The notes: generated by a model from the letters alone, not told the origin. A stretch of DNA of 54,933 nucleotides from Chiloscyllium plagiosum (GCF_004010195.1 NC_057749.1:6106637-6161569); one strand, 5' to 3'. Shown: positions 1 to 47,207, numbered from the stretch's first letter. Numbers and translations are program-made.

Positions 1-978
1 GCAGCTTTTTACAATATATATTAATGATATAGAAGATGGTATTAATAGTAGCATTAGCAAATTTGCTGATGATACAAAGCAGGGTGAAATGTGAGGAGGA
101 TGTTAGGAGATTACAGAGTGACCTGGACAGATTAGGTAAGTGGACAGATGCATGGCAGATGCAGTTTAATGTGGATAAATGTATGGTTATCCACTTTGGT
201 GGCAAGAGCAGGAAGGCAGATTATTACCTAAATGGAGTCAACTTAGGTAAAGGGACAGTACAAAGACATCTGGGTGTTCTTGTACACCAGTCAATGAAGG
301 CAAGCATGCAGGTACAGCAGGTAGTGAAGAAAGATAATAGCATGCTGGCCTTCATAACAAGAAGGACTGAGTATAGAAGCAAAGAGGTTCTTCTGCAGCT
401 GTACAGGGCCCTGGTGAGACCGCACCTGGAATATTGTATACAGTTCTGGTCTCCAAATTTGAGGAAAGACATTCTGGCTATTGAGGGAGTGCAGCATAGG
501 TTCACGAGGTCAATTCCTGGAATGGTGGGACTATCTTATGTTGAAAGAGTGGAGCTACTGGGCTTGTATACCCTTGAGTTTAGAAGACCGAGAGGGGATC
601 TGATTGAGACGTATAAGATTATTAAAGGATTGGAGACTCTGAGGGCAGGAAACATGTTGAGTGAGTCCCAAACCAGAGGACACAGCTTAAAAATAAGGGG
701 TAGGCCATTTAGGACAGAGATGAGAAGAAACTTCTTCACCCAGAGAGTGGTGGGTGTGTGGAATGCTCTGCCCCAGAAGGCAGTGGAGGCCCAGTCTCTG
801 AATTCATTTAAGAAAGAGTTGGATAGAGCTCTCAAGGATAGTGGAATCAAGGGTTATGGAGATAAGGCAGGAACAGGATACTAATTGAGGATGATCAGCC
901 ATGATCATAGTGAATGGTGGTGCAGGCTTGAAGGGCAGAATGGCCTACTCCTGAACCTATTGTCTATTGTCTATTGTC
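1..978 (+). mobile_element. CR1-clade LINE, 3' part of ORF2 (RT C-terminus) and 3' UTR
   Basis: KFADDTK at ~60-80, then LQSDLDRL..WQMQFNVDKC..LVRPHLEYCIQFWSP..RRNFFTQRVV in ORF 36..884. Ends in a (CTATTGT)x3 microsatellite tail typical of CR1. Confidence 0.93.
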
Positions 979-999: not shown

Positions 1000-1925
1000 C
1001 CATTGAAGTACTTTTTGAAGTGTAGTGACTGTTATGATGCAGGAAAGGCGATACAGAGTTTGTGCACAGCAAGCTCCCACAAACTGCAATGAGTGAATGA
1101 CCTGATGTCTTGCTGCAGCTGAACAAAATTCTGGTGGGGCTGCACTTGGAGTATTGTGTACAGTTCTGGTCTCTGCATTACAGGAAGGATGTGGAAGGTT
1201 TGGAAAGGGTTCAGAGGAGATTTACTAAGATGTTGCTTAGTATGGAAGGAAGGTTTTATGAGGAAAGGTTGAGGGACTTGAGGCTGTTTTTGTTAAAGAG
1301 AAGGTTGAGAGGTGACTTAATTGAGACATATAAGATGATCAGACGGTTAGATAGGGTGGACAGTAAGAGCCTTTTTCCTCGGATGGTGATGGTCAGCATG
1401 AGGGGACATAACTTTAAATTGAGGGGCGATAGATATAGGACAGATATCAGATTTAGTTTCTTTACTAAGAGTGGAATGCACTGCCTGTGACAGTAATAGA
1501 CTCACCAAGTTTAAGGGTATTTAGATGGTCATTAGATAAACAGATGGATGAAAATGGAATAGTGTAGGATAGATAGGCTTCAGATTGGTTCCACAGGTCG
1601 GCGCAACAGCGAGGGCCGAAGGGCCTGTACTGTGCTGTAATGTTCTACATTCTATGATGTTGATTGAGGCCAGGGCACAGTGGAAAACTGCCTTGCCTTC
1701 CCTTTGAAATATTTCAAGGGAATGTTTTCAGATCAAATGAGAGGGAAGTTGGGCATTCAGTTTGACAACTCATCTGAAAGACGGCACCTCGGACAATGCA
1801 GCACTCCCTCAGTACTGCACTGCAGAGTCAGCCTAGATATTTGAACTGACACCTGGGAGTCTTAACTTGAACGTGCACAACCTTCTGATTCAGTCACGAG
1901 TCCTACCAAAAGAGCCATAGCTGAC
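1000..1925 (-). mobile_element. SacSINE1/DeuSINE-like SINE split by a CR1 insertion (pieces ~1000-1106 and ~1657-1925)
   Basis: Reverse complement contains the tRNA-like head, the CAGTACTGAGGGAGTGCTGCA..GAGGTGCCGTCTTTCAGATGAG core and the ..GTGGGAGCTTGCTGTGC..CACTACACTTCAAAAAGTACTTCA tail. Family assignment from recall. Confidence 0.65.
1107..1656 (+). mobile_element. 5'-truncated CR1 LINE
   Basis: ORF 1110..1490 LHLEYCVQFWSLHYRKDVEGLERVQRRFTKML..LRGDLIETYKMI; 3' UTR ending GGGCCGAAGGGCCTGTACTGTGCTGTAATGTTCTA. Confidence 0.9.
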
Positions 1926-2129
1926 TCAAAGGAGAAAATTGTGATTAAGAAAAAGGGAGTTTGGAATGTTCAAACAATTATTAGAAAGAATGTCCAACAA
2001 AAGAGGTTATTGAGTTGTCCTTTAATTTTTTTGAAACTGGTAATTTCTTTTCTTGTACAATAAATTTTCATGCTACACAGGAAAATAGCACAACACCAGG
2101 TTATAGTCCAACAGGTTTAATTGGAAGCA

Positions 2130-2164
2130 CACTAGCTTTCGGAGCGCCGCTCCTTCATCAGGTG
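2130..2164 (-). ncRNA. Minimal type I hammerhead ribozyme motif (antisense arm)
   Basis: Reverse complement reads CAC-CTGATGA-A-GGAGC(GGC)GCTCC-GAAA-GCTA-GTG. Confidence 0.8.
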
Positions 2165-2178
2165 GTTGTGGACACTAT

Positions 2179-2213
2179 CACCTGATGAAGGAGCAGCGCT
2201 CCGAAAGCTAGTG
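2179..2213 (+). ncRNA. Minimal type I hammerhead ribozyme motif (PLE-type)
   Basis: CAC-CTGATGA-A-GGAGC(AGC)GCTCC-GAAA-GCTA-GTG: stem I CAC/GTG, intact core, 5-bp stem II, palindromic AGCT replacing stem III, CUA cleavage triplet. Activity not shown. Confidence 0.8.
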
Positions 2214-3039
2214 TGCTTCCAATTAAACCTGTTGGACTATAACCTGGTGTTGTGTGATTTTTAACTTTGTACACCCCAGTTCAACACTGGCACCTCCAAA
2301 TCAGGAAAATAGCATGTTCTACAGAAGTGCTTTAGTTGCCGGGCATGTTGTAGTGAGGCCACTGAGAGGGTGACTGTACACAATAATAATTTGGTTAGAG
2401 CTGTAGATTGGCTTCCCTGGAGTGAAAGCTCTAAAAGCACACAGATTATCCGAACATTTGTAGTTGCACAGCAATTACCCCAAGCAGCATGGTATCTGCA
2501 GAAGAGGTGTGTTTTGTTGCTGGTTTTCCCTTCACAAAGCTCCTATGAAGCTTTTTGTTAACAAGTTGTGATTTAACAAGGTAATAACTGCTTTGCAATT
2601 TACAGCTCACAACTGCTGCTAGGAAGGCAGTAGTGTAATGGTACTGTCATAGAAGAGTAATCCCAAGTCTTCCATTAATGCTTTTTGGGATATGGGTTCA
2701 AATCCCATCAAGGTAGCTTGTGGGATTCAATGAATAAATCTGACATGTAAAGCTTTAAGGGCAATTAAGGAGGGATAGCAAATGTTGTCAAATGCCTGTA
2801 TCCGATGACAGAATTTTTAAGCAAATCTTGGGTCCATCCATGGCACTAGTTTTTGTTCCCATGTTTATCTATGAACATTAAGAAAATAATAGGTAGGATG
2901 AGACAAATCAGGTCTGTTTTCTCTAGAATTTAAAAGAATAAGGAGTGATCAAAGTCTTCAAGATTTTAACAGGAAAAATATGGTAGATAAAGATAAACAA
3001 TTATCATTAGTTGGGTGTTATAGAATTAGGGGGCATAAT

Positions 3040-3135
3040 CTGAGGAAGGGTCACTCAAACGGAAACATGAACTCTGATTTCTCTCCACAGCTGCTGCCAG
3101 ACCTGCTGAGCTTTTCCAGCAATTTCTATTTTTGG
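3040..3135 (+). mobile_element. Old PLE-like 3' terminal fragment with decayed hammerhead core, inside an old CR1 fragment (~2890-3210)
   Basis: CTGAGGAAGGGTCACT..GAAACATG..CTCTCCACAGCTGCTGCCAGACCTGCTGAGCTTTTCCAGCA. Related copies on the - strand at ~29750-29870, 36040-36160, 39095-39222 and 52265-52360, and on + at ~30675-30748. Confidence 0.55.
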
Positions 3136-3417
3136 CAAATCTGCGAATTAGTGCCAGACCAATCAGGTGGTAGATGTTTGAAACTCTCATCCACACGCAA
3201 ATGGCAGTGGACTCTGTTCTATTAACCTGATATATGTGTGTAAGGTATGATTTGTCTGGTTAGTATGCAAAACAATAATTTTCACTGTATCTCAGTACAT
3301 GTGGCAATAATGTATCAAATTAAATCAAATTGTTTCAAAAAAGGTGTTTGCTTTGGAGAAATGAAGGTTGAGAGAAGTGTTCAAAATCCAGAGGAGTTGG
3401 ATGGGGACAGTTGTCAA

Positions 3418-3652: not shown

Positions 3653-4397
3653 GTCATATATCTCATGGTCAGTACATCTGTACACCTTTAAGAATAAAGT
3701 AAATTTGCCTGGTGATGACTGGTGGTGGTTTAACCTGAGGGTGACCATGCCTTAGGTCAGGTTGAAGAGGTTCATGGTGATGTTGACTGCGCTTTTAAAA
3801 CAAACAGTTTGTCAGTATACCTTTATGAACCATGCTAATGGGCATCAGCACTGTATCATGGTATGGCAGCTAAGGCTATGAAGCTCGCATGCTCCATCTT
3901 ACTCCAGGGTCAGTTCTGAATGTATGCCAAATTGTGGAGGCAGGCATGAAATATGATTGATTCCCCCAATCTACAGATGCACAAACTTTGAGGCTGTGCA
4001 TTGATAATATACTTCCTTAATACCTTCAAATGTGGTGTTTCTGTCAGAAATGCTTTCAGTATGACATGCAGTTAGCAGCCCAGTAGATCTGGCAATGAGG
4101 TACTAGCACCAGTGTAAATAAAAAAAAAACACATTTTCTTATCACCGCGCTAACAGACTACTGAGTAACAATGAGTCAGTGGGCATTTTTACTTTGGCTT
4201 CTGACCTGATGATGGTTTCTGCATTTCCCAATAGAGTTTGAACAAAAGGCAAAGGATAAGTCGGCAATGGCAGAAAACCCAATTTTGTTTTGAATGCTTT
4301 GTTGTTTTTTATAGTCCAGTAGTCACTGTTTGCAATTATGCTCCCATTAATTTACAAATGCCTCCCATTTGCTGATGACTGTAACTTTTCTGAGTTA

Positions 4398-5817
4398 GGA
4401 TTAAGGTAAAAATAATATATAGCCACAATTGTACGGGCACCTCATGAGCACCACTGTGCCCACATGATAAAATCAGCGAATGATAGAGCACAGATAGACC
4501 CCATTCAGCTTATTCCTGTTTGGAAAACAAGCAGCCAATCGGGCGGCATGGTCCCTCAGTGGTTAGCACAGCGCCAGGGACATGGGTTCAAGCCCTAAGC
4601 TTGGGTGACTATCTGTGTGGAGTTTGTACTTTCTCCCGTGTCCATAAGACATAGGAGAGGAAGTAAGGCCAATCGGCCCATTGAGTCCACTCTACCATTT
4701 AATCATGGCTGATGGATCTGTGCAGGTTTCCTCCCACACACCAAAGATTGTCTGTGGTGTCTAGGGATGTGTAGGTTTAACCACAGGAAATGCAGGGTTA
4801 TATTTCTGAGCAAATGCAGCTTTTTCTTTCCTGAGCCCATTTTTTAACCCGAGATCAAGATTCATCAATGTATAATCATTGGTAAAACAGGCTCTGGTGG
4901 TGCAGTCATGGTGTCTCGCCCTCTGGCTAAGGAAGTCCAGTTTCTTTGAAGGTTAGTATGGGCTGAATGGCCTCCTTTCATACTGAGCAATACAGGAGGA
5001 GAAGGAATTTGCAAAATTTCCAAGCACAAAATGAAACTGAACCAGCGATCAGGTTGGTAACGGAAGTACAAAAAGGGCTAACAGTCAGAGATCTAAGAGC
5101 TTGGCTATGTGCAACCGAAATGCTGGATATTCCACATGCTGTTTGAAGGAGTAGAGTAGTCAGATTCAGGAAATCATAGAATCCCTTCAGTACGGAAGGA
5201 GGCCATTCAGCCCATACCAACCTTCAAAGAGCATCCTACCCTATCCCTATAACCCTGCATTTCGCATGGCTAAACCTGCACATCCCTAGACACCACAGAC
5301 CATCCACCAAACCTGCACATCTTCGGTTTGTGGGAGGAAACCTGCACAGACCCATCAGCCATGATTAAACGGCAGAGTGGAGTCAATGGGCCGAATGGCC
5401 TTACTTCCACTCCTATGTTTTATGGACACAGGAGAAAATGCAAACTCCTGGCACTGTGAGACAGCAGTGCTTACCACTGAGGAGCCATGCCACCCAATTG
5501 GCTGCTTATTTTCCAAACAGGAATGAGCTTAATGGGGTCTATCTGTGCTCTATCATTCGCTGACTTCTATCATGTGGGCACAGTGGTGCTCATGAGGTGC
5601 CCGTTCAGTTGTGGCTATATATTATTTTTACATTAACCCATTATATGACTGACCTCTGAGGCAGGTGAGACTTGAAACTGGACTTCCTTAGCCAGAGGGC
5701 GAGACACTATGACTGCACCACCAGAGCCTGTTTTACCAATGATTATACATTGATGAATCTTGATCTCAGGTTAAAAAATGGGCTCAGGAAAGAAAAAGCT
5801 GCATTTGCTCAGAAATA
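4398..5817. repeat. Complex local inverted duplication
   Basis: 4398-4802 matches the reverse complement of 5248-5639; 4801-4944 matches rc of 5674-5817; 4943-4986 matches rc of 5187-5230. Includes non-repeat flank plus an HE1 SINE carrying the same nested LINE tail in both arms. Confidence 0.92.
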
Positions 5818-14555: not shown

Positions 14556-14816
<261 letters not shown>

Positions 14817-17186: not shown

Positions 17187-18188
17187 ATCAGAGTGGTGCT
17201 GGAAAAGTCAGGCAGTATCCAAGGAGCAGGAAAATCAATGTTTTGGGCAAAAGCCCTTCATCAGGAATAGAGGCAGGAAGCCAATAAAGATAAATGGGGG
17301 GCGTGGGGCTGGGGGGAAGGTAGCAAAGAGTACAATAGGTGAATGGGGGTGGGGATGGAGGTGATAGGTCAGAGAGGAGGGTGAAGCGGATAGGTGGGAA
17401 GGGAGATTGACAGGCCATGAGGAAAGTGCTGAGTTGGGAGGTTGGTTGAAGATGCCCTCCAACGCATCTCATCCACATCCCGCACCTCCACCCTCAAACC
17501 CTACCCCTCCAACCTTCGCATTAACCACATCATCAGCCGACATTTCTACCTCCTCCAAATGGACCCCACCGCCAGGGATATATTTCCCTCCCCCTCCCCT
17601 TTCCGCTTTCCACAAAGACTGTTCCCCCCGTGACTACCTGGTCAGGTCTATTACCCCCNNNNNNNNNNNNNNNNNNNNNNNNNNNNNNNNNNNNNNNNNN
17701 NNNNNNNNNNNNNNNNNNNNNNNNNNNNNNNNNNNNNNNNNNNNNNNNNNNNNNNNNNNNNNNNNNNNNNNNNNNNNNNNNNNNNNNNNNNNNNNNNNNN
17801 NNNNNNNNNNNNNNNNNNNNNNNNNNNNNNNNNNNNNNNNNNNNNNNNNNNNNNNNNNNNNNNNNNNNNNNNNNNNNNNNNNNNNNNNNNNNNNNNCAGC
17901 ACCATCCTCATGACCTGTCCTACCTGCCAATCTCCCTTCCCACCTATCCGCTCCACCCTCCTCTTTGACCTATCAGCTCCATCACCACCCCCATTCATCT
18001 ATTGTACTCTTTTGTACCTTCCCCCGCCCCCCGCCTCCCCATTTATCTCTCCACCATGGAGACTCCCTACCTCTATTCCTGATGAAGGGCTTTTCCTGCT
18101 CCTCGGATGCTGCCTGATCTGCTGTGTTTTTCCAGCACCACTCTGATCTAAACTCTGGTTTCCAGCATCTGCAGTCCTCTCTTTTGCC
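17187..18188 (+). mobile_element. Penelope-like element 3' fragment with inverted 5' arm, family A (contains assembly gap)
   Basis: 17187-~17440 is the reverse complement of 17897-~18150. The ORF-derived part 17449-17658 begins with sequence matching the PLE at 27420. Perfect 15-bp TSD TAGGGGATTGTTAAG (17172-17186; 18189-18203). Confidence 0.88.
17659..17896. other. Assembly gap (238 N)
   Basis: Run of n characters. Confidence 1.
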
Positions 18189-23588: not shown

Positions 23589-24075
23589 AGGAGAAAGTGA
23601 GAACTGCAGATGCTGGAGACCAGAGTTGAAAAATGTGGTGCTGGAAAAGCGCAGCAGGCCAGGCAGCATCTGAGGAGCAGGAGAATCGACATTTCGGGCA
23701 TAAGCCCTTCTTCAGGAATGACAGGTCTGGGAGAGTGTTGACCTGAGCTGGGGCAGAGCTGACTGCAGGGAGTGTAGGTAGCGGCGCATGGCCGCGAGCG
23801 TGGAGTGGAGAATCCGGAGGGAGGTCTGTTGTTGGAGGCTTCGGATTTGTTGCAGATACTGGTTGTCCTGGTTGGGTCCAAATTGTGTTGGTCTGAATGT
23901 AGTCTGGAGTCCATGCGGGGTCAGTCGGTTCCATAGGCAGGTGCTGAGGAAGGAGATGTGGCTGTGGTAGCGAGTCTGTTTCAGGACGTGGCTGAAGAGC
24001 TTCAGGGCAGAGGAGATGACTTGGGGGAAGGGCTTATGCCTGAAACGTCGATTCTCCTGCTCCGCGGATGCCACC
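23589..24075 (-). mobile_element. Fold-back PLE insertion, family A, enclosing a ~300-bp open ORF fragment
   Basis: Full terminus arm 23589-23720, short inverted arm ~24027-24072, and stop-free minus-strand frame VISSALKLFSHVLKQTRYHSHISFLSTCL..TLAAMRRYLHSL between them. Perfect 14-bp TSD ATGACTAGACAGAG (23575-23588; 24076-24089). Confidence 0.85.
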
Positions 24076-24093
24076 ATGACTAGACAGAGCTAA

Positions 24094-24290
24094 GTTAAAA
24101 ATCACACAACACCGGGTTATAATCCACCAGATTTATTTGGAAGCACCAGTACTAGCCAAGTCATGTAGACAGAGCTAAATATGTTAAGTATATAAGGTTA
24201 AAAATCACACAACCTCAGGTTATAGTCCAACAGGTTTATTTGGAAGCGCTAGCTTTTAGAACGCTGCTCCTTCATCAGGTGGTTGTCCAT
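24094..24290 (-). mobile_element. Two family B PLE terminal fragments (24094-24165 and ~24197-24290)
   Basis: GTTAAAAATCACACAAC..GGTTATA..TTGGAAGC motif twice. The first is flanked by TAGACAGAGCTAA (24081-24093; 24166-24178); the second carries a decayed antisense hammerhead. Confidence 0.78.
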
Positions 24291-24691
24291 AAGAAGGGTG
24301 TCATAATAGCTTTGTTCAAAAACTGAATCCCAAAAAAACATTTAGAAGAGTCAAAGAGGATAATTTTATTAAATTACTAATTTTCCTCATATCAGTAGAA
24401 ATGAACAAACAAAATGGCTGCAGATACAATTACAACATTTAAAAGACATTTGAACAGGAAAGGTTTGGAAGGACATGGGCCAGGAGAAGGCAGGTGGGAC
24501 TAGTTTAGTTTGGGATTATGTTCAACATGTTCTGGTTGGACCGAAGGGTGTGTTTCTGTGCTGTATATCTCTATGAAAGGGTAATATTGGGATAAAAGAA
24601 ATTAACAGACTAAATGTGCTTCACAAAGTGAGATCTAGCATTAACGTGTAACTGTCCTAACTACAGATAATTGGAGTACTTTAAATTTGAA

Positions 24692-24936
24692 AGTTAAAAA
24701 TCACACAACACCAGGTTATAGGATCAGTGGTGCTGGAAGAGCACAGCAATTCAGGCAGCATCCGAGGACAGGCAAAATCGACGTTTCGGGCAAAAGCCTT
24801 TCCAGCATCTGCAGTCATTGTTTTTACCAGGTTATAGTCTGGCACTGGTACCTCTAAATCATGGTTGGACTATAACCTGGTGTTGTATGATTTTTAACTT
24901 TGTACACCCCAGTCCGACACTGGCACCTCCAAATCA
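24692..24936 (+). mobile_element. Family B fold-back with a family A-like element nested inside (24722-24825)
   Basis: Inner element bounded by 12-bp TSD ACCAGGTTATAG (24710-24721; 24826-24837). Outer element ends CACCTCCAAATCA. Confidence 0.82.
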
Positions 24937-38990: not shown

Positions 38991-39311
38991 TTGGCTGGGT
39001 AATACCAGGCCATCCTGGTAAAGTTGTTGAGCTGCCAACAAATGCAGGCTTGGGAACCCAATTTATACTGTGACCTTGGGATCCCCAAATAAACCAAACT
39101 ACTGCAGATACTGGAAAATCTGAAATGAAAGCAGAAGTTGTTGGAGAAACCCAGCAGGTCTGACAGCATCCGTGGCTCGAGAAAGCAGACTTAACATTTC
39201 AGGACCAGTGTCCCTTCTTTAGAAGTGAAGCAGAACTACCATTCCCAGACAGATCGATTGGAGAATCATACTTGACTGCAGATACTCCCTGGAATGGCAT
39301 TGACAGAGGAA

Positions 39312-39529
39312 AGTTAGAAGTCACACAACACCAGGTTATAGTCCAACAGGTTTATCTGGAAGCCCTAGCTTTCAGAGCGCTGCGCCTTGTGGTTGTCACC
39401 TGACAACCACCTGATGAAGGAGCAGTGCTCCAAAAGCTAGTGCTTCCAAATAAACCTGTTGGACTCTAACCCGGTGTTGTGTGATTTTTAACTTTGTACA
39501 CCCCAGTCCAACACCGGCATCTCCAAATC
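39312..39529 (+). mobile_element. Fold-back PLE-derived insertion, family B
   Basis: Same arms and terminus as 2091-2301; TTGACAGAG duplicated at 39300-39308 and 39530-39538. Sense hammerhead has GAAA mutated to AAAA. Confidence 0.85.
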
Positions 39530-45002: not shown

Positions 45003-46290
45003 TCATAGAGACTTACAGTCATAGAGTCATAGAGATGTATAGCATGGAAACAGACCCTTCGGTCCAACCTGTCCATGCCGATCAGATATCCCAACCCAAT
45101 CTAGTCCCATTTGCCAGCACTTGGCTCATATCACTCTAAGCCCTTTGTATTCATAGACCAACCTAGATGCCTTTCAAATGTTGCAATTGTACCAGCCTCC
45201 ACCACTTCCTCTGGCAGCCCATTCCAATAATACTCCACCCTCTGCGTGAAAAGTTTGACCTTTAGGTTCCTTTTTTATTTTCTCCTCTCACCCTAAACCT
45301 ATGCCCTCTATGATCCACACTTGGGATCCCCCACCCCATGGAAAAGACCTTGTCTATTTATCCTATCCATGCCCCTCATGATTTTATAAATCTCTATAAG
45401 GTCACCCATCAGCTTCTGATGCTCCAGGAGGAAACAACCCCAGCCTATTCAGCTCAAATCCTCCAACCCTGGCAACATCCTTATAAGTCTTTTCTGAACC
45501 CTTTCAGGTTTCACAACATCTTTCCGATAGGAAGGAGACGAGAATTGCATGTAATATTCCAAAAGTGGCATAACCAATGTCCTGTACAGCCACAACATGA
45601 CCTCCCAACTTGTATACTCAATGCTCTGACCAATAAAAGAAAGTATACCAAACACCTTCTTCACTATCCTATCTACCTGCGACTCCACTTTAAAGGAGCT
45701 ATGAATGTGCACTCCAAGGTCTCTTTGTTCAACAACACTCCCTAGGACCTTACCATTAAGTGTATAAGTCCTGCTAAGATTTGCTTTCTCAAATGCAGCA
45801 CCTTGCATTTATCTAAATTAAACTCCATCTGCCATTCCTCAGCCCATTGGCCCATCTGATCAAGATCCTGTTGTAATCTGAGGTAACCTTCTTTGCTGTC
45901 CACTACACCTTCAATTTTGAAATCATCTGCAAACTTAATAACTGTACCTCTTATGCTCGCATCCAAATCATTTATGTAAATGACAAAAAGTAGTGGACCC
46001 AGCACCGATCCTTGTGGCACTCCACTGGTCACAGGCCTCCAGTATGAAAAGCAACCCTCCATCACCACCCTCTGTCTTCTAAATTCAAGCCAGTTCTGTA
46101 TCCAAATGGCTAGTTCTCCCTGTATTCCGTGAGATCTAACCTTGCTAATCAGTCTCATGTGGGGAACCTTGTCGAATGCCTCACTGAACTCCATATAGAT
46201 CACGTTCACCACTTTGCCCTCATCAATCCCCTTTGTTACTTTTTCAAAAATCTTAATCAAGTCCGTGGGACACGATTTCCCATGCACAAA
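45003..46290 (-). mobile_element. CR1 LINE, ~1.3 kb RT domain to 3' end
   Basis: ORF 45742..46287 AFDKVPH..VTSGVPQGSVLGPLLFVIYINDL..KFADD..LQQDLD; frameshifted continuation in 45449..45808; (CATAGAGT)n tail. Confidence 0.95.
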
Positions 46291-47207
46291 GACTATCCTT
46301 AATTCTGGAGTGTCAGCAGCATGGTTGAAGTAGAAGATGGTTGCACTGCTGTACTAAAGGGCCATGGTCTTTATACCCCAAGTGTGGATCAAGAGCTAAA
46401 GCAACAAAGCTGTTGGACAAAGAACACAAACTACTTATTGGTGATAACCCCTATGAGGCCCAAAGAGAATTATTGATTCATCTCATTGTGGACGTCATAG
46501 AGAAGAGTTCTCTTGGTAACTGGCAACAGCCTGCCGCGCTGAAACTCATCAGTTGAGCCATCTTATAACCCCCTCTTCCACAGTTACATTTGTGCCCAGA
46601 TTTCCTTTGAGAAGGAGCACAGTGTATCCATAAATGCTGTCAATGCCTCAGAGAGAGAGGTGGGCACTGCGTCGGATACTGTGCTTTATACCCCCCCCCT
46701 CCCCAACTCCAGTTCCTCCTTCCAACTCTAACTTTGGTTTCGTCCCTTCCTGCTCTCCCTACCCCACCTCACCTTTGAAAGTTGCATTACCTTGAATAAG
46801 CTTTGCTTGTAAATATTCAGTTGGATACATGGGTGTTTTTACTGATGGTGCTGTGCTAGCTATAAACAAAAAGAAAAAAAATCGCAGTGATTTTGGTGGT
46901 GGGAAGGTGCTCAGTTGTGTGTGATAACACTTCTGGGCAGAGAAAGAAAGGGATAAAAAGCAGATGCAGATTAGGTCTGCAGAACTGTCTGTCCCAGTCC
47001 GGGAACGAGTGTATCTATTCCATGAGTCGTGGCTCTGTTTTGGTATTCAGCATAAATGAGGCTCCTTTCCAGTCAGGCTTCCTAAGTTATTGCATTATTA
47101 GTTGTGCCAGATTAGTGCATGAGAATGAGGCAGCATTTACAAGTTATTTGTCTGCAATCAATTTTGCTTGAGCTGGAGATATTGGAGGGAAGGATGTAGG
47201 GGGTAAG

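What the first reader, a model, noticed from the sequence alone, without database searches (positions are those of the whole stretch)
2130..2213. Two intact, oppositely oriented minimal hammerheads in a 76-bp hairpin within the HCN pre-mRNA
Seen: both arms retain CTGATGA, a 5-bp stem II, GAAA, palindromic AGCT and a CAC/GTG stem I. The arms differ by one base, which lies in the stem II loop. Established: PLE-type minimal hammerheads lack a true stem III and are proposed to cleave as dimers through the palindrome. Inference: a transcript from either strand contains one ribozyme, but it would be sequestered in a long duplex by the opposite arm. That self-masking could explain tolerance in an intron, and the duplex could be a Dicer/Drosha/ADAR substrate.
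Basis: partly seen in the sequence, partly recalled or inferred. Interest (0 to 1): 0.7.

Follow-up and report, generated by a model that had tools for sequence, protein, structure and literature searches.

The report
Fold-back Penelope retroelement fragment with hammerheads
The hairpin is a short, head-to-head double copy of the tail end of a Penelope-like jumping gene, each arm carrying that element's small hammerhead ribozyme motif, lodged in an intron of an HCN channel gene; it is a real but ordinary kind of genomic debris.

Summary
Complete minimal-hammerhead motifs lie at 2182-2216 (+) and 2161-2127 (-). The predicted cut after A2210 is correct. The hairpin is larger than stated, with arms of about 82 and 93 nt.

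It is not a host device. It is one insertion (2091-2302, 12-bp target duplication) of a dispersed repeat with at least 1,323 candidate copies. The two arms are severely 5'-truncated 3' ends of a longer retroelement, joined head-to-head, and one arm carries a 37-nt "tail". A longer copy on another contig carries a reverse-transcriptase ORF and an endonuclease-like ORF, then a 3' UTR and the same hammerhead and tail. This matches the published Penelope-like element (PLE) insertion signature. The motif also meets every independent hallmark of PLE minimal hammerheads.

Masking is not needed to explain tolerance, because published single minimal hammerheads are inactive.

Dicer/ADAR use is untested. 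Follow-ups on other windows of this genome reached the same reading.

One open point: several fold-backs at independent sites share identical junctions, so the units may be re-mobilised whole.

The parts
2079..2090 (.). Left copy of the 12-bp target-site duplication AGGAAAATAGCA
   Evidence: The same 12-mer flanks the element on both sides.
2091..2172 (-). Left arm: PLE 3' end in antisense orientation. Its inner end is 11 nt upstream of C3 ('A-type', CCACAACCACC). Its outer end is about 12 nt short of the usual no-tail terminus.
   Evidence: BLAST to the 3' end of a long copy and the alignment of 20 copies.
2127..2164 (-). Minimal hammerhead motif on the - strand: stem I 5' strand 2164-2162, C3 at 2161, stem II 2153-2141, GAAA 2140-2137, A17 at 2133, GUG 2132-2130
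   Evidence: Exact pattern match; box and stem check.
2173..2265 (+). Right arm: PLE 3' end in sense orientation. Its inner end is 9 nt upstream of C3 ('B-type', CACTATCACC). Its outer end is the internal (no-tail) terminus ...TTTTTAAC.
   Evidence: Contig loose ends pile up at 2265-2268.
2179..2216 (+). Minimal hammerhead motif on the + (pre-mRNA) strand: CAC 2179-2181, C3 at 2182, extra A at 2189, stem II 2190-2202, GAAA 2203-2206, AGCU 2206-2209, A17 at 2210, predicted cut 2210|2211, GUG 2211-2213
2266..2302 (+). 37-nt PLE 'tail', present at one end only and unpaired in the hairpin
   Evidence: The tail is present on one side in the aligned copies. There is a second pile of loose ends at 2303, and depth in the tail bin is 7-15x lower than in the adjacent arm bin. 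This matches the published 30-40 bp tail (PMC8557442, PMC11167929).
2303..2314 (.). Right copy of the target-site duplication. A2303 could equally be the last tail base.
14661..14813 (+). cNMP-binding exon of the host HCN gene. This is context only; it shows the + strand is the transcribed strand.
   Evidence: PF00027 match at G000:C40:6121297-6121449 (+), with the Ion_trans_N exon upstream on the same strand.

Best explanation
The hairpin is a single retrotransposition product of an endonuclease-type Penelope-like element (PLE). It consists of two extremely 5'-truncated copies of the element's 3' end joined head-to-head. Both arms break off 9-11 nt upstream of the element's minimal hammerhead. 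One arm carries the optional 37-nt tail, and the whole unit is flanked by a 12-bp target duplication.

The hammerhead motifs are there because the parent element carries one about 84 nt from its 3' terminus (about 122 nt when the tail is counted). They are not there for any function in the HCN gene.

Inferred steps. The PLE enzyme primes reverse transcription on cleaved target DNA at one of two adjacent sites on the RNA, giving a copy with or without the tail. Synthesis stops in or just past the hammerhead region. A second, inverted copy completes the insertion. This second copy could arise by priming from the other DNA strand or by self-priming; which of these applies is not shown here.

In the HCN pre-mRNA the unit would fold into a hairpin of about 80 bp. 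That fold excludes the hammerhead fold, so cleavage at this locus is not expected.
For: Repeat family. The family has at least 541, 1,323 and 2,464 first-look candidates for three different query segments. In each search, 40 candidates were scored and all 40 matched.

Single-event insertion. 38 of 45 fold-backs have an exact flanking word of 7 nt or more (mode 12), against 1 of 45 in a displaced control. The window copy has a 12-bp target duplication.

Tail. The tail sits on one side only. There are two discrete 3' ends, at 2265-2268 and at 2303.

Variable 5' truncation. In 29 loci chosen only by their 3' 93 nt, the tail-arm inner ends range from +15 to beyond -241 relative to C3. 19 of 29 fall between -12 and +15. 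About 25 of 29 have an inverted partner arm.

Parent element. The copy on contig C11 has, in order:
- an inverted 5'-truncated copy;
- an RT ORF (RVT_1, E = 6.6e-10);
- a second ORF with a Cys motif and a GIY-YIG-like segment;
- a 3' UTR of about 590 nt;
- the same hammerhead;
- the tail.
The second ORF is 71% identical to a shark protein carrying RVT_1. That protein's nearest ESM Atlas clusters carry PF01541 GIY-YIG in 52-77% of members.

Hammerhead hallmarks. All are met. Two further families in the window have covarying stem II: GGGC/GCCC and GGGU/ACCY, against GGAGC/GCUCC here.

Published signature. PMC8557442, PMC3846280 and PMC11167929 (passages read) describe the same signature: 5' truncation, an adjacent inverted 5'-truncated copy, a 30-40 bp tail at one end, enzyme extension of both DNA strands, and two RT start sites.
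Against: - The GIY-YIG assignment is not confirmed by a profile. The local Pfam copy gives no hit, the PDB sequence search gives none, and the best PHROG match is an endonuclease family at E = 0.05.
- No Rfam hammerhead model matches, even at E <= 10. Those models include a helix III that this class lacks.
- Stem I is only 3 bp.
- Several independent insertions share an identical inner junction. Pure 'dead-on-arrival' independent truncation does not predict this.
- The two arms of the window copy carry different sequence variants near the tip. There are 3 differences in the inner 23 nt and none in the next 59 nt, so one arm was not simply copied from the other at this site.
Confidence: 0.85

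Rival explanations
1. The fold-back unit is itself a replicating non-autonomous retroposon. Because both termini are PLE 3' ends, a transcript of either strand ends in a valid reverse-transcription start site. The whole hairpin is then copied again by PLE enzymes supplied in trans. On this reading the window copy is a daughter of such a master, not a by-product of a full-length element.
For: Same inner junction at independent loci with different target duplications:
- L011, L012, L019, with the exact mirror image in L013, L017, L020;
- L003 and L006 (mirror images);
- L038, L039, L040, L044;
- L005 and L014;
- L009 and L010.

The window copy's junction is shared at 99% over 68 nt only by the copy at C40:5979258; the next best of the 40 scored is 93%. 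That copy carries the tail on the opposite arm.

Inner ends cluster strongly at the hammerhead: 19 of 29.

PMC3846280 (passage read) reports that pLTR cis sequences sufficed to move a host gene.
Against: - The first sample was selected by similarity to the window palindrome, which enriches for like junctions.
- Junctions could recur through microhomology or self-priming at the same short palindromes.
- No transcript or promoter evidence was obtained.
- The precise no-tail boundary at the far end is not explained by simple read-through transcription.
- The tail of the window copy cannot have been templated from its sibling, whose matching arm lacks a full tail.
Confidence: 0.35
2. This is a host-exapted element. 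The hairpin, or its ribozyme, regulates HCN pre-mRNA by conditional self-cleavage, or serves as a small-RNA precursor or editing substrate.
For: - Both motifs are intact at this locus, whereas 26 of 86 arms that span the motif are broken.
- The hairpin is very stable.
- Contigs of a related organism run into the element from both unique flanks, so the insertion is probably shared. These overlaps are below the tool's 31-nt bridging rule.
Against: - About 70% of arms in both samples also keep intact boxes: 28 of 40 and 30 of 42. Intactness here is therefore unremarkable.
- The locus is one of more than 1,000 near-identical copies.
- Single minimal hammerheads are inactive in vitro (PMC4209133).
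- The Rfam miRNA hits are far below gathering scores: 82.7 against 200, and 28.3 against 62.
- There are no RNA data for the locus.
Confidence: 0.04
3. This is a MITE, or other DNA-transposon-derived palindrome, that happens to contain a hammerhead-like string.
For: The element is a near-perfect inverted repeat, short and high in copy number.
Against: - Target duplications vary from 8 to 18 bp.
- One end carries an asymmetric tail.
- The inner junction varies between copies.
- The arm is continuous with the 3' UTR of an RT-encoding element.
- The motif meets four hammerhead hallmarks that are independent of the core boxes.
Confidence: 0.02
4. This is a non-LTR retrozyme monomer: tandem hammerhead repeats that spread through circular RNA.
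For: Retrozymes are reported to derive from PLE pLTRs (bioRxiv 10.64898/2026.07.22.740005; abstract and Results part 1 read). Rod-like folding is typical of such RNAs (recalled).
Against: - There are no direct repeats in window 1500-3000.
- The copies examined are inverted pairs with target duplications, not head-to-tail arrays.
- Only one sense hammerhead occurs per strand, so no unit can be excised.
Confidence: 0.04

Closest known systems
Minimal hammerhead ribozymes (min-HHR) of metazoan Penelope-like elements (Cervera & De la Pena 2014, PMC4209133; main text parts 1-2 read)
   Same: - Core boxes CUGAUGA and GAAA.
- An unpaired base between A9 and G10.1.
- A G10.1-C11.1 pair.
- No helix III loop, with a palindromic tetranucleotide (AGCU) that could pair only between two copies.
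- Location in the terminal repeat region of an RT-encoding element.
- Massive genomic dispersal, mostly as single motifs on truncated copies. That paper also noted pairs of motifs close together on opposite strands.
   Different: - Helix I is 3 bp here; the S. mansoni families have 4-5 bp and D. virilis has 2 bp.
- Helix II is 5 bp with a 3-nt loop.
- This particular family, in a cartilaginous-fish-type genome, was not found in print. Search one search returned only a review that uses 'shark' for the motif's shape. The supplementary figures of PMC4209133 were not examined.
Insertion architecture of endonuclease-positive PLEs: inverted 5'-truncated copy plus one-sided 30-40 bp tail (PMC3846280, PMC8557442, PMC11167929; passages read)
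   Same: - Head-to-head inverted copy.
- Tail on one arm only.
- Variable target duplication.
- Heavy 5' truncation.
- Two discrete 3' ends, consistent with two reverse-transcription start sites.
   Different: Here nothing is left between the inverted copies. The unit is only about 212 nt, and its junction lies right at the hammerhead. Sets of such minimal units share junctions.
Non-LTR retrozymes of animals (PMC7229834, search listing only; bioRxiv 10.64898/2026.07.22.740005, abstract and Results part 1 read)
   Same: Short non-coding PLE-derived sequences that carry type I hammerheads needing dimers.
   Different: Retrozymes are head-to-tail tandem repeats processed to circular RNA. This element is an inverted pair with one sense ribozyme per strand.
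Intronic inverted-repeat retroposon pairs that form long dsRNA, for example inverted Alu pairs edited by ADAR (recalled from general knowledge; not checked in a paper here)
   Same: A near-perfect intramolecular duplex of about 80 bp within a pre-mRNA intron.
   Different: Here the duplex is made in one insertion event, and no editing or small-RNA data exist for it.

Membership tests
PLE-type minimal hammerhead (min-HHR) | Conserved core: C3-U4-G5-A6-N7-G8-A9, G12-A13-A14, A15.1-U16.1, and H17 that is not G | tested here: met
   Both arms read CUGAUGA...GAAA-GCU-A.
PLE-type minimal hammerhead (min-HHR) | Helix II hairpin closed by the G10.1-C11.1 pair | tested here: met
   GGAGC/GCUCC gives 5 of 5 pairs in both arms. 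Other families in the window show compensatory changes (GGGC/GCCC, GGGU/ACCY).
PLE-type minimal hammerhead (min-HHR) | Unpaired nucleotide between A9 and G10.1 | tested here: met
   The extra A is at 2189 (+) and 2154 (-). All 6 descriptor hits in the window have it. The feature is listed in PMC4209133.
PLE-type minimal hammerhead (min-HHR) | No helix III loop; palindromic positions 15.1-16.1 that allow a dimeric helix III | tested here: met
   AGCU at 2206-2209.
PLE-type minimal hammerhead (min-HHR) | Short helix I (4-5 bp in the described consensus families) | tested here: inconclusive
   Only CAC/GUG (3 bp) can pair, with a predicted pairing probability of 3e-4 in the isolated arm. PMC4209133 describes a 2-bp helix I in the D. 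virilis variant.
PLE-type minimal hammerhead (min-HHR) | Mg2+-dependent self-cleavage, as a dimer | not testable with these tools
   No raw RNA reads fell on the stretch: X22 gave 0 reads laid.
Rfam hammerhead families | Score at or above the gathering threshold of a hammerhead covariance model | tested here: not met
   There was no hammerhead hit at gathering score on the window, nor at E <= 10 on 2000-2350. These models include a helix III that this class lacks.
Endonuclease-positive Penelope-like element (insertion unit) | Reverse-transcriptase ORF in longer copies of the same element | tested here: met
   L054:3230-4387 matches RVT_1 at E = 6.6e-10. On the same copy the hammerhead and tail lie 3' of the ORFs.
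Endonuclease-positive Penelope-like element (insertion unit) | C-terminal GIY-YIG endonuclease | tested here: inconclusive
   For:
- The ORF at 3940-4764 of the C11 copy has a Cys motif and an ...IVYLMRC...WYIGE... segment. Reading this as GIY-YIG is recalled, not tested.
- Atlas neighbours of its 71%-identical homologue carry PF01541 in 52-77% of members.
- A PHROG endonuclease family matches at E = 0.05.

Against:
- There is no Pfam hit and no PDB hit.
- The own-genome PF01541 search was unproductive.
Endonuclease-positive Penelope-like element (insertion unit) | 5' truncation with an adjacent inverted 5'-truncated copy | tested here: met
   46 fold-backs were found in the loci examined, with arms from about 30 nt to more than 900 nt.
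Endonuclease-positive Penelope-like element (insertion unit) | 30-40 bp tail at one end | tested here: met
   The 37-nt tail is at 2266-2302 on the right arm only.
Endonuclease-positive Penelope-like element (insertion unit) | Direct partial tandem (pLTR) | tested here: not met
   No direct repeat was found in window 1500-3000. This copy is too truncated to show one. The feature was not examined systematically in long copies.
Non-LTR retrozyme | Head-to-tail tandem repeats, each with a hammerhead | tested here: not met
   There are no direct repeats at the locus, and the copies examined are inverted pairs.
MITE / DNA transposon | Terminal inverted repeats with a fixed-length target duplication | tested here: not met
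   Flank words range from 8 to 18 nt. The element also has an asymmetric tail and is continuous with a retroelement 3' UTR.
microRNA precursor families (Rfam MIR841, mir-39 and others) | Score at or above the family's gathering threshold | tested here: not met
   Scores were 82.7 against 200, 28.3 against 62, and 18.7 against 53. These are generic long-hairpin matches.

The most novel reading that the evidence does not exclude
Minimal fold-back units, made of two PLE 3' ends joined head-to-head at the hammerhead, may not be mere dead-on-arrival debris. They may form a self-propagating class of hairpin-shaped non-autonomous retroposons. Both termini are reverse-transcription start and endonuclease-recognition sites, so either strand's transcript can be copied. 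That would explain identical junctions at independent loci with the tail on either arm. The hammerhead region, with a strong stem II hairpin and short palindromes, would act as the preferred stop and joining point that creates them.
Probability: 0.3. Interest if true: 0.5.

Novelty: new member of a known kind. Interest (0 to 1): 0.25.

Why it matters
For the HCN gene it probably does not matter. This is one of more than a thousand similar insertions, and the ribozyme fold is both masked by the hairpin and expected to be inactive as a monomer.

The value is for annotation. Such hairpins can be mistaken for miRNA precursors: Rfam gave sub-threshold miRNA hits. They can also be mistaken for MITEs, or for functional intronic ribozymes.

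The family also gives a clean natural data set for the unresolved Penelope-like integration mechanism. It shows two discrete 3' ends, head-to-head joining, a hot spot of junctions at the hammerhead, and junctions that recur at independent sites. If fold-back units are re-mobilised whole, that would be a simple new route to non-autonomous retroposons.

Tried and rejected
- Rfam at gathering score on the window and at E <= 10 on 2000-2350 gave no hammerhead. Only sub-threshold miRNA-hairpin matches appeared, and these were rejected as generic hairpin hits.
- The own-genome search with Pfam GIY-YIG gave one marginal hit on a small contig. It did not help to find the parent element.
- Long window ORFs (25 of the 172 ORFs of 70 aa or more) gave only a LINE-type RT. 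The ORF at 33-884 is also a LINE-type RT C-terminus by my reading of its sequence (recalled motif). A recalled-motif scan for HCN exons found nothing. The HCN context came instead.
- A global MAFFT alignment of the long copies was uninformative and was replaced by BLAST.
- Walking upstream in L052 and L053 found no coding ORF. L054 did.
- RNA evidence: no RNA holder was listed for the stretch. The one raw RNA run laid (X22) gave 0 reads, so it was no test. Runs X15 and X16 are only guessed to be RNA. Their contigs come from many copies, so nothing can be said about expression, cleavage ends or editing at this locus.
- The PDB sequence search, Pfam at E <= 10 on the C-terminal 141 aa and PHROGs did not confirm GIY-YIG.
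- The cross-family alignment for a formal pair count put the GAAA boxes out of register. The count of structure pairs was therefore not run, and covariation is reported only by inspection.
- Considered and rejected: MITE, retrozyme and miRNA gene (see the membership tests).

Full report
WHAT IS THERE

The motif CUGAUGA-A-GGAGC-NGC-GCUCC-GAAA-GCUA|GUGUGC occurs at 2182-2216 on the + strand and at 2161-2127 on the - strand. It occurs nowhere else in the window at up to 3 mismatches, and shuffles gave 0 matches. A17 is A2210 on the + strand, so the predicted cut at 2210|2211 is right. The mirror site on the - strand follows position 2133.

The inverted repeat is larger than reported. The repeat finder gives arms 2082-2170 and 2173-2261 at 94% complementarity. 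As RNA, either strand folds into one long hairpin of -165 kcal/mol, z = -24. Within 2130-2213 the arms differ at three positions, and only the stem II loop difference lies inside the hammerhead.

No Rfam family reaches its gathering score on the window. At E <= 10 on 2000-2350 there is no hammerhead hit, only sub-threshold miRNA-hairpin matches.

IT IS A REPEAT

A search of the window's own 3.56-Gb assembly with the 180-nt palindrome gave at least 541 candidates. All 40 scored candidates matched at 87-97% identity.

Aligning 20 of these loci showed an asymmetric element:
- two arms;
- a variable centre;
- a usual outer boundary of (G)TTAAAAATCAC...;
- a unique extension of about 37 nt (TTTGTACACCCC...CTCCAAATC) on one side only;
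- direct repeats of the flanking DNA, of variable length.

In the window the unit runs from 2091 to 2302, flanked by AGGAAAATAGCA at 2079-2090 and 2303-2314. The left arm is about 12 nt short at its outer end. Over all fold-backs in the fetched loci, 38 of 45 have an exact flank word of 7 nt or more (mode 12, range 8-18), against 1 of 45 in a displaced control. Each hairpin therefore entered as a single event, by a mechanism that makes variable target duplications. That is retroposition, not cut-and-paste transposition.

THE ARMS ARE THE 3' END OF A LONGER ELEMENT

A search with only the 93 nt downstream of the cut site gave at least 1,323 candidates, and the 40 scored matched at 97-100% identity. 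This sample is not biased towards palindromes. In the 29 loci other than the window, the sequence upstream of the tail-bearing arm differs from copy to copy.

Relative to C3, the inner ends lie as follows:
- between -12 and +15 in 19 of 29;
- further upstream in 10 of 29, four of which reach beyond -236.

About 25 of 29 have an inverted partner arm, and one (L031) is a solo truncated copy with its own target duplication. Long copies share hundreds of bases upstream. L036 is an inverted pair with arms of 582 and about 905 nt.

A 313-nt piece of that upstream region has at least 2,464 candidates. One hit, on contig C11, was read through. It contains, in order:
- an inverted 5'-truncated copy (2488-3237);
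- an ORF with a reverse-transcriptase domain (RVT_1, E = 6.6e-10);
- a second ORF (3940-4764) with a Cys-rich motif and an ...IVYLMRC...WYIGE... segment;
- a 3' UTR of about 590 nt;
- the same hammerhead (C3 at 5357);
- the tail (ending at 5478).

The second ORF is 71% identical to a 643-aa protein from a shark genome that carries RVT_1. That protein's nearest ESM Atlas clusters carry PF01541 GIY-YIG in 52-77% of members. The local Pfam copy, the PDB and PHROGs did not confirm GIY-YIG, so that single feature stays a lead.

COMPARISON WITH WHAT IS KNOWN

PMC4209133 (main text parts 1-2 read) defines PLE minimal hammerheads and lists features that were not in its search descriptor:
- a conserved G10.1-C11.1 pair;
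- palindromic 15.2-16.2.

All three are present here. That paper also reports that single motifs are inactive and dimers only weakly active in vitro, that most motifs are dispersed on truncated elements, and that some motifs occur as nearby pairs on opposite strands.

PMC8557442 and PMC3846280 (passages read) describe PLE insertions as 5'-truncated, often with an inverted 5'-truncated copy adjacent, and with a 30-40 bp tail at one end. PMC11167929 (passages read) shows that a purified PLE protein cleaves and extends both DNA strands and starts reverse transcription at two adjacent sites, with the tail being the sequence between them. It found no RNA-seq reads beginning at the hammerhead site.

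The public contigs laid on the window fit this. Loose ends pile up at 2265-2268 and at 2303, which are the two 3' termini. Depth in the tail bin is 7-15 times lower than in the adjacent arm bin.

The window also holds further minimal hammerheads of two other sequence families, at + 28151, - 23715, - 49823 and - 42513. All have the extra A, and their stem II covaries: GGGC/GCCC and GGGU/ACCY against GGAGC/GCUCC. That makes 6 descriptor hits against 0.085 expected, and 0 of 200 simulations reached 6.

Motif boxes are intact in 28 of 40 and 30 of 42 arms in the two samples, and in 2 of 4 arms in the window. The commonest lesion is G12->A at the C11.1-G12 CpG, seen in 14 of 26 broken arms by my count.

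HOST CONTEXT

An HCN-specific Ion_trans_N exon lies at C40:5830444 (+), 276 kb upstream of the window. A cNMP-binding exon lies at window 14661-14813 (+). Two other contigs show the same exon pair on one strand. The hairpin is therefore most likely intronic, and the + strand is transcribed. The pre-mRNA would carry the antisense arm first, then the sense hammerhead and the tail.

Masking holds in silico. Stem II has a pairing probability of about 1e-15 in context and 0.99 in the isolated arm, and enforcing stems I and II costs about 58 kcal/mol.

Masking is not needed to explain tolerance, for three reasons. The isolated arm does not form stem I either (3e-4). Published single motifs do not cleave. 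The nearest + strand copy (C3 near 39411) has G12->A.

Use as a Dicer, Drosha or ADAR substrate could not be tested. No RNA holder was listed, and the one raw RNA run gave no reads.

Contigs of a related organism run 25 and 21 nt into the element from the two unique flanks. This suggests the insertion is shared, although the overlaps are below the tool's 31-nt bridging rule.

WHAT REMAINS OPEN

Independent insertions share identical inner junctions:
- L011, L012 and L019, with the exact mirror image in L013, L017 and L020;
- L003 and L006;
- L038, L039, L040 and L044;
- L005 and L014;
- L009 and L010.
Each has its own flanks.

The window's own junction is shared at 99% over 68 nt only by a copy 130 kb upstream in the same gene. 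The next best of the 40 scored is 93%. That copy carries the tail on the other arm.

The window's arms also carry different variants near the tip, with 3 differences in the inner 23 nt and none in the next 59 nt.

These facts fit one of two pictures: re-mobilisation of whole fold-back units from either strand, or recurrent joining at the same short palindromes. PMC3846280 proposes self-priming.

EARLIER NOTES FROM THIS SCAN

Follow-ups on eight other findings in this genome reached the same PLE fold-back and minimal-hammerhead reading. I reached it before looking them up (my reading is filed) and tested it independently here.

VERDICT

The catch is real and the motif class was correctly named. 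The object is an ordinary member of a known kind.

Noticed in passing
window 39310-39529: A second fold-back copy of the same family, with the tail and a target duplication TTGACAGAG. Its sense arm has G12->A (CTCCAAAAGCTA), and the inner part of its antisense arm is damaged.
   Followed up: partly
window 24026-24936: A nested cluster: fragments of this family (24092-24146, 24188-24286, 24690-24721, 24864-24936 with tail) interleaved with an inverted pair of a second hammerhead family (24026-24071 / 24758-24803, ...GAAACGUC|GAUUCUCC...).
   Followed up: partly
window + 28151, - 23715, - 49823, - 42513 (C3 positions): Four more minimal-hammerhead descriptor hits from two other sequence families. 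All have the extra A after A9, a 4-bp stem II and an ACGU-type palindrome. Fold-back forms of the second family also occur in L029, L049 and L054.
   Followed up: partly
G000:C40:5979202-5979381 (locus L002): A sibling fold-back 130 kb upstream in the same HCN gene. It has the same inner junction (99% over 68 nt), its own target duplication (TCAGTCC), and the tail on the opposite arm.
   Followed up: partly
window 1768-1835: Another very high-copy short repeat. Summed contig depth is about 4e5 in a DNA run, against about 20 in the flanks. It was not identified.
   Followed up: no
window 33-884 (+) and 45742-46353 (-): Fragments of LINE reverse transcriptase. 45742-46353 matches RVT_1 at E = 2e-23. 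33-884 is the C-terminal region typical of CR1/L2-type elements, by my reading of the sequence (recalled).
   Followed up: partly
window 2211-2212 and family-wide: A frequent family variant lacks the GU directly after the cut site (GCUA|GUGCUUCC). It appears in 53, 24 and 21 contigs in three runs and in many loci. Stem I stays at 3 bp in both forms.
   Followed up: no
window 17659-17896: An assembly gap: a run of 238 N.
   Followed up: no
L054/L055 (G000:C11:63533000-63538700), positions about 4700-5080: The 3' UTR of the RT/EN-bearing copy contains a CA-rich, microsatellite-like stretch between the ORF stop and the hammerhead region.
   Followed up: no
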